Virus genome (UHGV): UHGV-0074612 | Direction: 5' to 3' (one strand) | Length of the DNA: 17,318 nt | DNA from: a virus | Part shown: positions 2,353 through 17,268 of the stretch, piece after piece | Layout: every line of letters starts with the position of its first letter | Position numbering within the stretch: position 1 is the first letter of the stretch | The notes under the pieces: model-generated | Database searches by the model: none | The model's input: only the letters and a program-made list of their open reading frames with translations | Told to the model about the DNA's origin: nothing | Program-made: the position numbers and the translations under genes

Positions 2353-2720
2353 CGTAAAATATCCTCTATACTGGTAAGCCCTTCATTATTTAGCCAGATC
2401 ATTGCGTCATCCGGCAACTTGCTGTCTGGTTTTGCGTTTTTGAGAGAGGAACTCAGTCGCTTAATCCACATTGTCAGCTCAGTAATGCGCCTGTGTTTGC
2501 CTTCCAGCTCAACGCGCAGCCTCCCTACCGTTAGTGCAATATCCTCGTTCTCCTTGTCGCGGCGTTTGACGTATTGCTGGTTTCTTTCCCGTTCATCCAG
2601 CAGTGCCAGCACAATCGATGGTGTTACCAGCTCATGGAAAAGGTCCGCGTCAAATCCCCAGTTGTCATGCATTGCCTGCTCTGCCGCTTCACGCAGTGCC
2701 TGAGAGTTAATTTCGCTCAC
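2349..2720 (-). CDS. Ead/Ea22-like protein (123 aa)
   Basis: N-terminus MSEINSQALREAAEQAMHDNWGFDADLFHELVTPSIV resembles the Ead/Ea22 family N-terminus from memory; start overlaps the stop of the upstream gene. Confidence 0.7.
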   Translation of the reverse strand: MSEINSQALREAAEQAMHDNWGFDADLFHELVTPSIVLALLDERERNQQYVKRRDKENEDIALTVGRLRVELEGKHRRITELTMWIKRLSSSLKNAKPDSKLPDDAMIWLNNEGLTSIEDILR

Positions 2721-2938
2721 TTCGAACCTCTCTGTTTACTGATAAGCTCCAGATCTTCCTGGCAACTTGCACAAGTCCGACAACCCTGAACGGCCAGGCG
2801 TCTTCGCTCATCTATGGGATCGCCACACTCACAACAATGAGTGGCAGATATAGCCTGGTGGTTCAGGCGGCGCATTTTTATTGCTGTGTTGCGCTGTAAT
2901 TCTTCAATTTCTGATGCTGAATCAATGATGTCTGCCAT
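2717..2938 (-). CDS. TraR/DksA-family C4 zinc-finger protein (73 aa)
   Basis: C-terminal CxxC(x17)CxxC: CCECGDPIDERRRLAVQGCRTCASC, typical of TraR/DksA-like zinc fingers. Confidence 0.75.
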   Translation of the reverse strand: MADIIDSASEIEELQRNTAIKMRRLNHQAISATHCCECGDPIDERRRLAVQGCRTCASCQEDLELISKQRGSK

Positions 2939-3036
2939 CTTCCATTAATCCCTGAATTGTTGGTTAATACGCTTGAGGGTGAATGCGAATAATAAAAAAG
3001 GAGCCTGTAGCTCCCTGATGATTTTGCTTTTCATAT

Positions 3037-3318
3037 TCACCGTTCCTTAAAGACGCCGTTTAACATGCCGATCGCCAGGCTTAAATGAGTCGGTGTGAAT
3101 CCCATCAGCGTTACCGTTTCGCGGTGCTTCTTCAGTACGCTACGGCAAATGTCATCGACGTTTTTATCCGGAAACTGCTGTCTGGCTTTTTTGATTTCAG
3201 AATTAGCCTGACGGGCAATACTGCGAAGGGCGTTTTCTTGCTGAGGTGTCACTGAACAAGTCCCATGTCGGCAAGCATAAGCACACAGAATATGAAGCCC
3301 GCTGCCAGAAAAATGCAT
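3037..3318 (-). CDS. Hypothetical ORF (93 aa); doubtful
   Basis: Open frame only; no recognisable Shine-Dalgarno ahead of the ATG at 3318; overlaps the coupled small ORF 3249..3332 in another frame. Confidence 0.35.
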   Translation of the reverse strand: MHFSGSGLHILCAYACRHGTCSVTPQQENALRSIARQANSEIKKARQQFPDKNVDDICRSVLKKHRETVTLMGFTPTHLSLAIGMLNGVFKER

Positions 3319-3332
3319 TCAGTGGTTGTCAT
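3249..3332 (-). CDS. Candidate 27-aa hydrophobic peptide MTTTECIFLAAGFIFCVLMLADMGLVQ
   Basis: Its ATG overlaps the TGA of the orf63-like gene (ATGA at 3329-3332); uninterrupted hydrophobic core. Not in the ORF track because it is under 60 aa. Confidence 0.3.
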   Translation of the reverse strand: MTTTECIFLAAGFIFCVLMLADMGLVQ

Positions 3333-3520
3333 ACCTGGTCTCTCTCATCTGCTTCTGCTTTCGCCACCATCATTTCCAGCTTTTGTGAAAGGGATGCGGC
3401 TAACGTATGAAATTCTTCGTCTGTTTCTACTGGTATTGGCACAAACCTGATTCCAATTTGAGCAAGGCTATGTGCCATCTCGATACTCGTTCTTAACTCA
3501 ACAGGAGATGCTTTGTGCAT
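3329..3520 (-). CDS. Lambda orf63-like small protein (63 aa)
   Basis: Size and position immediately downstream of the orf60a-like gene and exo; sequence feels lambda-like from memory. Confidence 0.7.
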   Translation of the reverse strand: MHKASPVELRTSIEMAHSLAQIGIRFVPIPVETDEEFHTLAASLSQKLEMMVAKAEADERDQV

Positions 3521-3681
3521 ATAGCCCCTCGTTTATTATTTATCTCCTCAGCCAGCCGCTGTGCTTTCAGTGGATTTCGGATAACAGAAAGGCCGGGAAA
3601 TACCCAGCCTCGCTTTGTAACGGAGTAGACGAAAGTGATTGCGCCTACCCGGATATTATCGTGAGGATGCTTCATCGCCAT
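3493..3681 (-). CDS. Lambda orf60a-like small protein (60-62 aa)
   Basis: Directly downstream of exo in the leftward operon; alternative start at Met3 (3675) would give 60 aa. Confidence 0.7.
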
Positions 3682-4352
3682 TGCTCCCCAAATACAAAAC
3701 CAATTTCAGCCAGTGCCTCGTCCATTTTTTCGATGAACTCTGGCACCATTTCGTCAAAACCAGCCATGTATTTTTCATCCCGCTCGACCACGACATAATG
3801 CAGGCCTTCACGCTTCATACGTGGGTCATAGTTGGCAAAGTACCAGGCATCTTTTCGCGTCGCCCACATGCTGAATTGCACCTGGGCCATGTAAGCTGAT
3901 TTTATTGCCTCGAAACCACCGAGCCGGAATTTCATGAAATCCCGGGAGGTAAACGGGCATTTCAGTTCAAGGCCGTTGCCGTCACTGCATAAACCATCGG
4001 GAGAGCAGGCGGTGCGCATACTTTCGTCGCGATAGATGATCGGGGATTCAATAACATTTACGCCGGAAGTGAACTCAAACAGGGTTCTGGCGTCGTTCTC
4101 GTACTGTTTTCCCCAGGCCAGCGCTTTAGCGTTAACTTCCGGAGCCACACCGGTGCAAACCTCAGCCAGCAGGGTGTGGAAGTAGGACATTTTCATGTCA
4201 GGCCACTTCTTTCCTGATCGGGGCTTTGCTATCACGTTGTGAACTTCTGAAGCGGTGATGACGCCGAGCCGTAATTTGTGCCATGCATCATCCCCCTGTT
4301 CGACAGCTCTCACGTCGATCCCGGTACGCTGCAGGATAATGTCCGGTGTCAT
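3672..4352 (-). CDS. exo: Lambda exonuclease (Red alpha)
   Basis: 226-aa [43 protein letters not shown]..., lambda Exo length and sequence as I recall; start overlaps the bet stop. Confidence 0.97.
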
Positions 4353-5134
4353 GCTGCCACCTTCTGCTCAGTGGCTTTCTGTTTCAGGAATCCGAGAGCT
4401 TTCACTGCTTCGACCTGTGTCAGTTCTGACGATGCGCGAATGTCGCGGCGAAATATCTGGGAACAGAGCGGCAATAAGTCGTCATCCCATGTTTTATCCA
4501 GGGCAATCAGCAGAGTGTTAATCTCCTGCATGGTTTCATCGTTAACCGGAGTGATGTCGCGTTCCGGCTGACGTTCTGCAGTGTATGCGGTATTTTCGAC
4601 AATGCGCTCGGCTTCATCCTTGTCATAGATACCAGCAAATCCGAAGGCCAGACGGGCACACTGAATCATGGCTTTATGACGTAACATCCGTTTGGGATGC
4701 GACTGCCACGGCCCCGTGATTTCTCTGCCTTCGCGGGTTTTGAATGGTTCGCGGCGGCATTCATCCATCCACTCGGTAACGCAGATCGGATGATTACGGT
4801 CCTTGCGGTAAATCCGGCATGTGCAGGATTCATTGTCCTGCTCAAAGTCCATGCCATCAAACTGCTGGTTTTCATTGATGATACGGGACCAGCCATCAAC
4901 GCCCACCACCGGAACGATGCCGTTCTGCTTGTCAGGGAAGGCGTAAATTTCTTTCGTCCACGGATTAAGGCCGTACTGGTTGGCGACGATCAACAATGCG
5001 ATGAACTGCGCATCGCTGGCATCGCCTTTAAATGCCGTCTGGCGAAGAGTGGTGATCAGTTCCTGTGGGTCGACAGAATCCATGCCGACACGTTCAGCCA
5101 GCTTCCCAGCCAGCGTTGCGAGTGCTGTACTCAT
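4349..5134 (-). CDS. bet: Single-strand annealing protein Bet (Red beta)
   Basis: 261-aa [53 protein letters not shown]..., lambda Bet length and sequence as I recall. Confidence 0.97.
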
Positions 5135-16687: not shown

Positions 16688-17268
16688 TGGCATTCAGAAT
16701 GAGTGAACAAGCACGGACCATAAAAATTTATAATCTGCTGGCCGGAACTAATGAATTTATTGGTGAAGGTGACGCATATATTCCGCCTCATACAGGTCTG
16801 CCAGCAAACAGTACCGATATTGCACCACCAGATATTCCGGCAGGCTTCGTGGCTGTTTTCAACAGTGATGAGGCATCGTGGCATCTCGTTGAAGACCATC
16901 GGGGGAAAACGGTTTATGACGTAGCGTCAGGGGACGAGTTATTTATTTCTGAACTCGGTCCGTTACCGGAAAATGTTACCTGGTTATCGCCGGGAGGGGA
17001 ATATCAGAAGTGGAACGGCACAGCCTGGGTGAAGGATACGGAAGCAGAAAAACTGTTCCGGATCCGGGAGGCGGAAGAAACAAAAAACAGCCTGATGCAG
17101 ATAGCCAGTGAGCATATAGCGCCGCTTCAGGATGCTGTGGATCTGGAGATCGCAACGGAGGAAGAAACCTTGTTGCTGGAAGCCTGGAAAAAGTATCGGG
17201 TGTTGCTGAACCGTGTTGATACATCAACTGCACCGGATATTGAATGGCCAGTAGCACCTATAGGGTAA
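16687..17268 (+). CDS. tfa: Tail fibre assembly protein Tfa
   Basis: 193-aa [42 protein letters not shown]...; start overlaps the stop of the upstream tail-fibre ORF; lambda Tfa-like length and sequence as I recall. Confidence 0.9.

What the first reader, a model, noticed from the sequence alone, without database searches (positions are those of the whole stretch)
3249..3332. Translationally coupled 27-codon hydrophobic ORF downstream of the orf63-like gene
The ATG overlaps the TGA of the upstream gene (ATGA), and the product MTTTECIFLAAGFIFCVLMLADMGLVQ is essentially one hydrophobic helix. That resembles small membrane peptides and type I toxin-like peptides. It competes with a 93-aa ORF in another frame that lacks a Shine-Dalgarno.
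Basis: seen in the sequence. Interest (0 to 1): 0.45.

Follow-up and report, generated by a model that had tools for sequence, protein, structure and literature searches.

The report
Hidden small membrane-peptide gene in lambda
A 27-codon reading frame between two early genes of lambda-type prophages has been overlooked because databases draw the next gene (orf61) too long; it shows the mutation pattern of a real protein-coding gene and probably makes a tiny membrane peptide whose role is unknown.

Summary
The ORF is real and sits at 3249..3332 on the minus strand. It lies in the exo-xis region of a lambda-like E. coli prophage, and the identical peptide is encoded by phage lambda at 30925..31008. 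Its ATG overlaps the orf63 stop (ATGA). Its own TGA also overlaps a GTG (ATG in most alleles) that starts a 71-aa frame.

That 71-aa protein is the true Orf61:
- Distant homologues are 69-75 aa and start at the same position.
- It models alone as a confident three-helix domain.
- A variant prophage gives it its own Shine-Dalgarno.

The first 22 codons of the "93-aa ORF" are therefore not Orf61 coding sequence.

Across about 200 loci, polymorphism in the 27-codon frame is mostly synonymous: 11 of 15 recurrent changes against 4.4 expected, P=0.0005. This matches the orf61 control. The 93-aa frame looks unconstrained. The ORF and both overlaps survive replacement of orf63 by a Dam methylase.

The best reading is a genuine, translationally coupled small gene encoding a hydrophobic, probably membrane, peptide that also relays ribosomes to orf61. 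The type I toxin reading is not supported. The gene is restricted to E. coli lambdoid prophages (58% of complete genomes). It is only sporadically annotated as hypothetical, and its function is unknown.

The parts
3249..3332 (-). 27-codon small ORF (MTTTECIFLAAGFIFCVLMLADMGLVQ), the finding. Equivalent to lambda 30925..31008.
   Evidence: Intact in 200 of 201 loci that carry it. Excess of synonymous polymorphism in this frame.
3329..3332 (-). ATGA junction: the orf63 stop overlaps the small-ORF start.
   Evidence: ATGA is kept in every locus with the small ORF, including three divergent orf63 3' ends and the Dam-methylase context.
3249..3252 (-). GTGA junction: the small-ORF stop overlaps the Orf61 (71 aa) start codon. 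It is ATGA in most alleles, including lambda.
   Evidence: 187 loci have ATGA and 13 have GTGA. The A/G polymorphism is synonymous in the small frame and keeps a start codon.
3037..3252 (-). orf61 proper: a 71-aa three-helix protein (PGAP WP_000188870-type 'hypothetical protein', sometimes named 'ZapA').
   Evidence: PGAP call in NCTC9008. Distant homologues of 69-75 aa start at this point. AlphaFold pLDDT is 89.6 for the 71 aa alone. pN/pS is 0.25 for all alleles and 0.09 for recurrent ones.
3253..3318 (-). Spurious N-terminal extension of the '93-aa ORF' (orf61 as annotated in 933W, Stx phages and PHROG 303). It overlaps the small ORF in another frame.
   Evidence: In this frame only 2 of 15 recurrent polymorphisms are synonymous, and pN/pS is 0.72-2.4. 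Weak SD. Absent from distant homologues.
3329..3520 (-). orf63 (DUF1382), the upstream gene that delivers ribosomes.
2945..3040 (-). 31-aa ORF whose GTG overlaps the Orf61 TGA (GTGA at 3037..3040). It is the next link of the coupled chain and contains a terminator-like hairpin at 2998..3016.
   Evidence: A 31-aa peptide gene found in this region by lambda ribosome profiling (orf2313) is cited in PMC8614690; equating it with this ORF is my inference from length and place.
2717..2938 (-). orf73 (TraR/DksA-type zinc finger), the end of the conserved block.
3187..3192 (-). A6 tract inside orf61. Lambda has A7 here, which frameshifts and truncates its Orf61.
   Evidence: alignment; 6 A in 193 loci, 7 A in 18, mostly lambda itself.

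Best explanation
The 27-codon frame is a genuine small protein-coding gene of the lambda-type early leftward (pL) operon. It lies between orf63 and a correctly delimited 71-aa orf61.

How it is translated (inferred): ribosomes finishing the upstream gene (orf63, or a Dam methylase in some prophages) re-initiate at the overlapping ATG (ATGA), helped by a moderate to strong SD. They translate 27 codons, terminate at a TGA that overlaps the [A/G]TG of orf61, and re-initiate there. The orf61 start has almost no SD of its own in this arrangement. The ORF therefore acts as a translational relay for Orf61.

What the product is: its amino-acid sequence is itself under purifying selection (shown). It is a hydrophobic peptide with one about 21-residue helix and no basic residues (net charge -2). 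It most likely inserts into the inner membrane early after induction or infection (inferred). Its target is unknown.

Status of each step: the ORF, its two overlaps, its conservation pattern and the true extent of orf61 are shown. Translation, coupling, membrane insertion and any phenotype are inferred.
For: 1. Anatomy. The junctions ATGA (3329..3332), GTGA (3249..3252) and GTGA (3037..3040) chain orf63, the small ORF, orf61 and the 31-aa ORF.

2. Polymorphism. The sample was about 200 loci and 83-104 distinct haplotypes.
- In the small frame there were 12 synonymous and 10 non-synonymous changes, pN/pS 0.26.
- Alleles seen in at least 2 haplotypes gave 8 synonymous and 2 non-synonymous changes, at codon positions [2,0,8].
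- In the permutation test, which used a slightly wider haplotype set, 11 of 15 recurrent changes were synonymous against 4.35 expected, P=0.0005.
- The 93-aa frame had 2 of 15 synonymous, P=0.93.
- The orf61 control in its own frame had 17 of 24 synonymous, P=0.0001.
- Every polymorphism above about 4% frequency is synonymous in the small frame and non-synonymous in the 93-aa frame, apart from one T3A replacement in 9 of 200 loci that is non-synonymous in both.

3. Integrity. 200 of 201 loci carrying the ORF keep it intact with both overlaps.

4. Module swaps.
- In 20 loci a 185-aa Dam methylase replaces orf63. Homology resumes exactly at the small ORF's ATG, ATGA is kept, and a strong SD (GGGAGG, -10.3 kcal/mol) precedes it.
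- In the P0025-type prophage the small ORF is absent and the 71-aa gene has its own SD and ATG.

5. Orf61 is 71 aa.
- A HMMER scan of 1.84 billion representatives finds 69-75 aa homologues aligned from residue 1-6.
- Klebsiella and Vibrio phage homologues start directly at the upstream gene's stop.
- The 71-aa protein models at pLDDT 89.6.
- PGAP calls the 71-aa form.
- Published models of the 93-aa form disagree over residues 1-23 (PMC8614690).

6. Start signals. The orf61 start has a weak SD (-3.9 kcal/mol), consistent with dependence on coupling.

7. Hydrophobicity. The Kyte-Doolittle mean over 21 residues is 2.42. The replacements seen (T3A/I, E5K, C6S, F8L, A11G, G12V, F15L, A20S/V, D22G/N, V26I) are compatible with a helix.
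Against: - There is no direct evidence of translation. A review of the lambda ribosome-profiling study lists only a 7-aa and a 31-aa new ORF in this block. Footprints over the small ORF would, however, have been credited to the annotated orf61.
- The gene is confined to E. coli lambdoid prophages. tblastn finds nothing below about 92% identity in 50,697 phage records. Distant Orf61 loci lack it, so Orf61 does not need it.
- One Escherichia sp. locus (L006) has a 14-nt deletion that destroys it and joins the coupled ATG to the orf61 frame. One locus has a stop at codon 27.
- The peptide has no Lys or Arg flanks, which is unusual for a membrane anchor.
- Short hydrophobic ORFs are common by chance in this window.
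- The antisense frame whose wobble positions coincide with the small frame's mimics the signal (pN/pS 0.38 for all alleles and 0.11 for recurrent ones). The same artefact appears for the orf61 control.
- Only 15-22 mutations underlie the statistics.
Confidence: 0.7

Rival explanations
1. Relay-only upstream ORF. The frame is translated solely to carry ribosomes from orf63 to the weakly initiating orf61 start. The peptide itself has no function and is degraded.
For: Both junctions are stop/start overlaps and orf61 has a weak SD here. Distant Orf61 genes are coupled directly to the upstream gene without any spacer ORF. This shows that the essential feature is coupling, not the peptide.
Against: A pure relay should tolerate amino-acid changes. 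Instead pN/pS is 0.08-0.26, as low as in orf61 itself, and 175 of 200 loci encode the identical peptide. A relay does not need 27 codons or a hydrophobic helix.
Confidence: 0.15
2. The 93-aa ORF (orf61 as annotated in 933W, phi24B and PHROG 303) is the real gene, and the 27-codon frame is an untranslated chance ORF inside its 5' end.
For: Many phage records and PHROG 303 use the 93-aa form. The frame is open in all alleles. Re-initiation after the orf63 stop could reach an ATG 11 nt downstream. In locus L006 the coupled, strong-SD ATG is in this frame.
Against: The first 22 codons evolve as if unconstrained, with radical replacements at high frequency (G>R, T>A, H>Y, S>R/G/C, M>V). Distant homologues and a variant E. 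coli module lack the extension. SD is poor. The upstream limit of this frame varies between alleles (TGA, GGA or AGA at the preceding codon). The overexpressed annotated ORF was insoluble (PMC6213356).
Confidence: 0.07
3. Type I toxin-like peptide. The small hydrophobic peptide depolarises the membrane and is kept in check by an antisense RNA.
For: Its size and hydrophobicity resemble TisB, DinQ and ShoB-class toxins (own knowledge). A weak plus-strand promoter-like site lies at 2964..2993.
Against: The ORF has no promoter or leader of its own and is embedded in an operon, coupled on both sides. The only opposite-strand promoter-like site is about 250 nt away, is followed by a terminator-like site that would stop transcription before the ORF, and is no more than chance predicts (1 found, 1.7 expected). 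There is no Rfam hit. The RNA is less structured than shuffles (z=+2.2). The peptide has no basic residues.
Confidence: 0.03
4. The selected feature is a gene on the opposite strand (61-aa ORF 3265..3450, plus strand), whose third codon positions coincide with those of the small ORF.
For: That frame also shows low pN/pS, 0.38 for all alleles and 0.11 for recurrent ones.
Against: The same mimicry appears antisense to the orf61 control, so it is a known geometric artefact. In all 20 Dam-context loci this antisense ORF is broken or loses its ATG, while the small ORF stays intact. No promoter faces it.
Confidence: 0.02

Closest known systems
Lambda orf61 / 933W L0070 / phi24B vb_24B_7c (exo-xis region 'Orf61')
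   Same: Same DNA. The small ORF lies wholly inside the annotated lambda orf61 (30839..31024) and overlaps the first 22 codons of the 93-aa annotation in Stx phages.
   Different: It is a different reading frame and a different product. The comparative data assign nt 3253..3318 to the 27-aa frame and start Orf61 at the following [A/G]TG (71 aa). Published orf61 deletions removed both genes (PMC6213356).
Small ORFs of the lambda exo-xis block found by ribosome profiling (orf2311 of 7 aa and orf2313 of 31 aa, Liu et al. 2013 as cited in PMC8614690)
   Same: Same operon and the same style of tiny ORF linked by a stop/start overlap. The 31-aa ORF at 2945..3040 starts on the Orf61 stop codon, just as Orf61 starts on the small ORF's stop.
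   Different: The 27-aa ORF is not listed there. It is masked by the orf61 annotation, and its support here is evolutionary, not experimental.
Small single-helix inner-membrane proteins of E. coli (for example YohP 27 aa, KdpF 29 aa, MgtS 31 aa, AcrZ 49 aa; own knowledge)
   Same: Length and one hydrophobic helix. Missed by annotation pipelines.
   Different: No sequence similarity and no family hit in Pfam, NCBIfam or PHROGs. It is phage-encoded, lacks basic flanking residues, and has no known partner.
Type I toxins (Hok, TisB, DinQ, ShoB, Ibs; own knowledge)
   Same: A short hydrophobic peptide, often prophage-associated.
   Different: No antisense RNA, no independent promoter or structured leader, and an operon-internal coupled position.
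Other small host-directed proteins of the lambda pL operon (the Kil peptide, PMC3961180; CIII, own knowledge)
   Same: Early pL expression, small size and dispensability for plaque formation. Likely host-modulating.
   Different: Kil and CIII are soluble or amphipathic with known targets (FtsZ/ZipA, FtsH). This peptide is a hydrophobic helix with no known target.
Termination-reinitiation coupling at overlapping stop/start codons (ATGA, TGATG; own knowledge)
   Same: Both junctions are the canonical 4-nt overlap. The downstream start has a weak SD.
   Different: Coupling has not been measured here.

Membership tests
Protein-coding gene under purifying selection | The reading frame is kept open across alleles. 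| tested here: met
   200 of 201 loci carrying it are intact. One has a stop at codon 27.
Protein-coding gene under purifying selection | Excess of synonymous over non-synonymous polymorphism in this frame only. | tested here: met
   11 of 15 recurrent changes are synonymous against 4.35 expected, P=0.0005. The other two sense frames are not significant. The orf61 control behaves the same way.
Protein-coding gene under purifying selection | A conserved, usable translation start. | tested here: met
   ATGA overlap in all loci. SD is -5.6 kcal/mol after orf63 and -10.3 kcal/mol after Dam.
Protein-coding gene under purifying selection | Direct evidence of translation (ribosome footprints, peptide). 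| not testable with these tools
   The Liu et al. 2013 paper and its data are not held. The peptide was not found in the text or supplements searched.
N-terminal part of Orf61 (93-aa annotation) | The extension is conserved at the amino-acid level. | tested here: not met
   pN/pS is 0.72 (all alleles) and 2.44 (recurrent). Only 2 of 15 recurrent changes are synonymous.
N-terminal part of Orf61 (93-aa annotation) | The extension is present in homologues. | tested here: not met
   Distant homologues are 69-75 aa and align from residue 1-6. Klebsiella and Vibrio phage genes start at that point. The P0025-type E. coli allele has its own SD there.
Type I toxin-antitoxin | Small hydrophobic peptide. 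| tested here: met
   27 aa, GRAVY 1.62.
Type I toxin-antitoxin | Antisense or adjacent RNA antitoxin with its own promoter. | tested here: inconclusive
   No promoter-like site faces the ORF. The only plus-strand site is about 250 nt away and at chance level. No Rfam family matches. A consensus scan cannot exclude a weak promoter.
Type I toxin-antitoxin | Independent toxin transcript with a structured 5' leader that controls translation. | tested here: not met
   The ORF is operon-internal and its start overlaps the upstream stop. The RNA is less stable than shuffles, z=+2.17.
Type I toxin-antitoxin | Toxicity or membrane depolarisation on expression. | not testable with these tools
   Needs an experiment.
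Single-helix membrane peptide | Hydrophobic stretch of about 19-21 residues above the Kyte-Doolittle threshold. | tested here: met
   CIFLAAGFIFCVLMLADMGLV has a mean of 2.42.
Single-helix membrane peptide | Basic flanking residues (positive-inside rule). | tested here: not met
   No Lys or Arg. The only charged residues are E5 and D22 (read from the sequence).
Single-helix membrane peptide | Membrane localisation. | not testable with these tools
   Needs fractionation or a tagged fusion.

The most novel reading that the evidence does not exclude
The 27-aa peptide, not Orf61, is responsible for part of the 'orf61' phenotypes reported for lambda. Lambda's own Orf61 is frameshifted, yet deleting 'orf61', which also removes the small ORF, still raised lysogenisation. 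On this reading the peptide would be a new lambda early gene product acting at the inner membrane on the lysis-lysogeny decision or on host physiology, for example through a membrane protease or sensor.
Probability: 0.15. Interest if true: 0.7.

Novelty: new member of a known kind. Interest (0 to 1): 0.45.

Why it matters
Lambda is the reference temperate phage, and the exo-xis block is one of its last poorly understood regions. It influences the lysis-lysogeny choice and Shiga-toxin prophage induction.

If the re-annotation is right:
1. Lambda and the Stx phages carry one more early gene than their reference annotation shows. It is present in about 58% of complete E. coli genomes.
2. Orf61 has been cloned, modelled and overexpressed with 22 wrong N-terminal residues. 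This may explain the insoluble protein and the discordant models.
3. Published orf61 deletions are double knock-outs, so their phenotypes need to be re-assigned.

The case also shows how an over-long neighbouring annotation can hide a small gene.

Tried and rejected
- **Distant homologues of the peptide.** tblastn against 50,697 phage records at E<=10 found nothing below about 92% identity. Pfam, NCBIfam and PHROGs gave only non-significant hits. The peptide is too short (27 aa) for the deep HMMER scan or for structure prediction.
- **Genome-contig scan with Orf61.** It returned almost only E. coli and lambda DNA contaminating unrelated assemblies.
- **Profile-based locus search for distant Orf61 genes.** I used tblastn on phage records instead.
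- **RNA-structure explanation.** The region is less structured than shuffled sequence. Rejected.
- **Known sRNA or antitoxin.** No Rfam hit in the region.
- **Programmed -1 frameshift from the small frame into the orf61 frame.** There is no X XXY YYZ slippery site in frame (read from the sequence), and the product would lose the hydrophobic helix. Not pursued.
- **Orf61 fold.** It is a confident three-helix model, but no PDB match reached E<1. Neither the 'ZapA' name (Pfam E=0.014, below cut-off) nor the homeodomain reading could be confirmed.
- **Literature.** The peptide string is absent from 8 million full texts and from the held supplements of two small-ORF surveys, although those files were truncated. 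Liu et al. 2013 is not held.
- **Protein cluster.** The 428-aa proteins that cluster with the peptide are an unrelated glycosyltransferase, a clustering artefact.

Full report
**Where we are.** The window carries the early-left (pL) recombination and exo-xis block of a lambda-like E. coli prophage. All of these genes are on the minus strand:
- bet, 4349..5134
- exo, 3672..4352
- orf60a (DUF1317), 3493..3681
- orf63 (DUF1382), 3329..3520
- the region in question
- orf73 (TraR/DksA zinc finger), 2717..2938

Window 2900..3700 is 98% identical to phage lambda 30575..31376 and 99.4% identical to a prophage of E. coli NCTC9008.

**The observation.** It is correct. ORF 3249..3332 (minus strand) encodes MTTTECIFLAAGFIFCVLMLADMGLVQ, and its ATG overlaps the orf63 TGA (ATGA at 3329..3332). 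Lambda encodes the identical peptide at 30925..31008, inside the annotated orf61 (30839..31024). The rival 93-aa ORF (3037..3318) exists. Its ATG follows an in-frame TGA and has a poor anti-SD match, -3.8 kcal/mol against -5.6 for the small ORF.

**A second overlap.** The small ORF's TGA overlaps a GTG at 3252..3250. This codon is ATG in lambda and in 187 of 200 loci. It opens a 71-aa frame, and this is exactly what NCBI's pipeline calls in NCTC9008 (WP_000188870). That gene's TGA in turn overlaps the start of a 31-aa ORF (2945..3040). PMC8614690 cites a 31-aa peptide gene, orf2313, detected in this region by lambda ribosome profiling; I take it to be this ORF from its length and position. The block is therefore a chain of stop/start overlaps: orf63, 27 aa, 71 aa, 31 aa.

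**What is Orf61?** Four independent lines say it is 71 aa, not 93.
1. A full HMMER scan of 1.84 billion representatives finds distant relatives (30-65% identity). Nearly all are 69-75 aa and align from their residues 1-6 to residues 1-5 of the 71-aa protein.
2. In Klebsiella phages Mulock, 2b LV-2017 and Kp4856-1, and in Vibrio phage PVA1, the homologue starts directly on or next to the stop of the upstream gene (a methylase in the Klebsiella phages). Nothing lies in between.
3. In an E. coli prophage variant (P0025-type, 344 cluster members), a 250-aa gene is followed by GAGG, then ATG, then the 71-aa protein. There is no small ORF.
4. The 71 aa alone give a confident AlphaFold model: pLDDT 89.6, with helices at residues 3-26, 32-49 and 54-64.

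This agrees with the literature. Published models of the 93-aa form are consistent only for residues 24-93 (PMC8614690). The model has no significant PDB neighbour, and the 'ZapA' label rests on a sub-threshold Pfam hit.

**Which frame is selected between 3253 and 3318?** I extracted the region from about 213 loci: IMG/VR prophage contigs, phage records and genomes. Because some contigs were fetched twice, I worked with distinct haplotypes and with sites rather than copies.
- There are 23 segregating sites in the 84 nt, and 12 of them fall on third positions of the small frame. Every polymorphism above about 4% frequency is synonymous in the small frame and non-synonymous in the 93-aa frame, apart from one T3A replacement in 9 of 200 loci that is non-synonymous in both. 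The 93-aa-frame replacements are often radical: G>R, T>A, H>Y, M>V.
- pN/pS is 0.26 in the small frame and 0.08 for alleles seen in at least 2 haplotypes. It is 0.72 and 2.44 in the 93-aa frame. The orf61 control gives 0.25 and 0.09 in its own frame.
- A permutation test re-placed each observed mutation type at random positions, using a slightly wider haplotype set. It gave 11 of 15 recurrent changes synonymous against 4.35 expected (P=0.0005), and 17 of 35 for all changes (P=0.004). The 93-aa frame gave P=0.93. The orf61 control gave P=0.0001.
- The antisense frame that shares wobble positions mimics the signal. It does the same opposite the orf61 control. That antisense ORF is broken in all 20 Dam-context loci, where the small ORF is intact.

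**Modularity.** In 20 loci orf63 is replaced by a 185-aa Dam-type methylase. Homology to the window resumes exactly at the small ORF's ATG. The methylase stop again forms ATGA, and a strong SD (GGGAGG, -10.3 kcal/mol) precedes it. Three divergent orf63 3' ends also keep ATGA. The small ORF therefore travels with orf61 and keeps a functional start in unrelated upstream contexts. Exceptions are rare. One Escherichia sp. locus (L006) has a 14-nt deletion that removes the ORF's start and puts the coupled ATG in the orf61 frame. One locus has a stop at codon 27. One database protein (P0074) is a frameshift fusion.

**Distribution and prior knowledge.**
- The 132-nt region occurs in 3,142 of 5,426 complete E. 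coli genomes, at 4,250 places. It occurs in 176 phage records, including lambda, 434, 933W, VT2-Sakai and many Stx phages. No phage record matches below about 92% peptide identity.
- No Pfam, NCBIfam or PHROG family covers it.
- RefSeq and the phage records inspected do not annotate it.
- The exact peptide exists in sequence databases as 'hypothetical protein' (UniRef A0A0A2SGE8) and was called on 981 contigs.
- No paper in the searchable library mentions it.

**Mechanism.**
- Shown: the anatomy, the selection pattern and the boundaries of orf61.
- Inferred for translation: ribosomes terminating at the upstream gene re-initiate at the overlapping ATG. After 27 codons they terminate on the [A/G]TGA and re-initiate orf61, whose own SD is weak here (-3.9 kcal/mol).
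- Inferred for the product: because the peptide sequence is conserved as tightly as Orf61's, it is more than a spacer. It is one hydrophobic helix (Kyte-Doolittle mean 2.42 over 21 residues) with only E5 and D22 charged. Most likely it inserts into the inner membrane early in lytic growth.
- The target is unknown.
- The RNA is not structured (z=+2.2), no antisense promoter faces the ORF and no Rfam family matches. The type I toxin model is therefore unsupported.

**Consequences for published work.** Lambda carries A7 instead of A6 at window 3187..3192, which truncates its Orf61 (also noted in PMC8614690). The orf61 deletions of Dydecka et al. replaced the whole annotated ORF, and so also removed the 27-aa gene. 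Their effects were stronger in phi24B than in lambda, and the overexpressed ORF was insoluble (PMC6213356). The residual lambda phenotype could come from the small peptide. This is speculation, which I put at about 15%.

**Verdict.** This is a real, conserved, lineage-restricted small gene hidden by an over-long neighbouring annotation. It is a new member of a known kind: small, coupled, probably membrane peptides of phage early operons. Its biological role is open.

Noticed in passing
window 2945..3040 (-); L235 1104..1205: The 31-aa ORF MNMKSKIIRELQAPFLLFAFTLKRINQQFRD starts on the Orf61 stop codon and contains a terminator-like hairpin at 2998..3016. Enterobacter phage CobraSix has a 33-aa ORF at the same place, before its TraR gene, with a similar C-terminal half (..RPFLLLAFTFNRINRLFEE). 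Either the peptide or the terminator is conserved across genera.
   Followed up: partly
window 3187..3192 (A6 on the minus strand); L001 (lambda): Reference lambda has A7 here. This frameshifts Orf61, so the lambda 'orf61' annotation is a chimera of the wrong-frame 5' part and a truncated 3' part. 193 of 213 loci have A6.
   Followed up: yes
L007-L020 (genome-contig hits): Assemblies labelled Pseudomonas, Shewanella, Bradyrhizobium, Kitasatospora, Paenibacillus and others carry contigs of up to about 48 kb that match lambda's version of orf61, with the extra A. This almost certainly reflects lambda DNA contamination of those assemblies.
   Followed up: no
L006 1430..1720 (Escherichia sp. E1V33): A 14-nt deletion relative to the window removes the small ORF's start and joins a strong-SD, ATGA-coupled ATG to the orf61 frame, predicting a 90-aa Orf61. 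It is the only locus seen in which an extended Orf61 looks designed to be made.
   Followed up: partly
L231, L232, L233 (Klebsiella phages): The order methylase, Orf61-like, TraR/DksA, xis, int is conserved in Klebsiella phages Mulock and 2b LV-2017, and Kp4856-1 keeps at least the methylase-Orf61 junction. Orf61 and the TraR-like protein may work together.
   Followed up: no
window 3037..3252 (-), model m02be458996a7: The 71-aa Orf61 gives a confident three-helix model with no significant PDB neighbour (best Foldseek E=1.4). The RefSeq name 'cell division protein ZapA' rests on a Pfam hit below threshold (E=0.014).
   Followed up: partly
window 2964..2993 (+) and 3168..3185 (+): A promoter-like site and a terminator-like site on the plus strand could define an RNA of about 190 nt antisense to orf61. 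Both are weak and within chance expectation.
   Followed up: no
window 17030..17228 (+): Full-length Rfam match to IS009 (RF02111), 221 bits.
   Followed up: no
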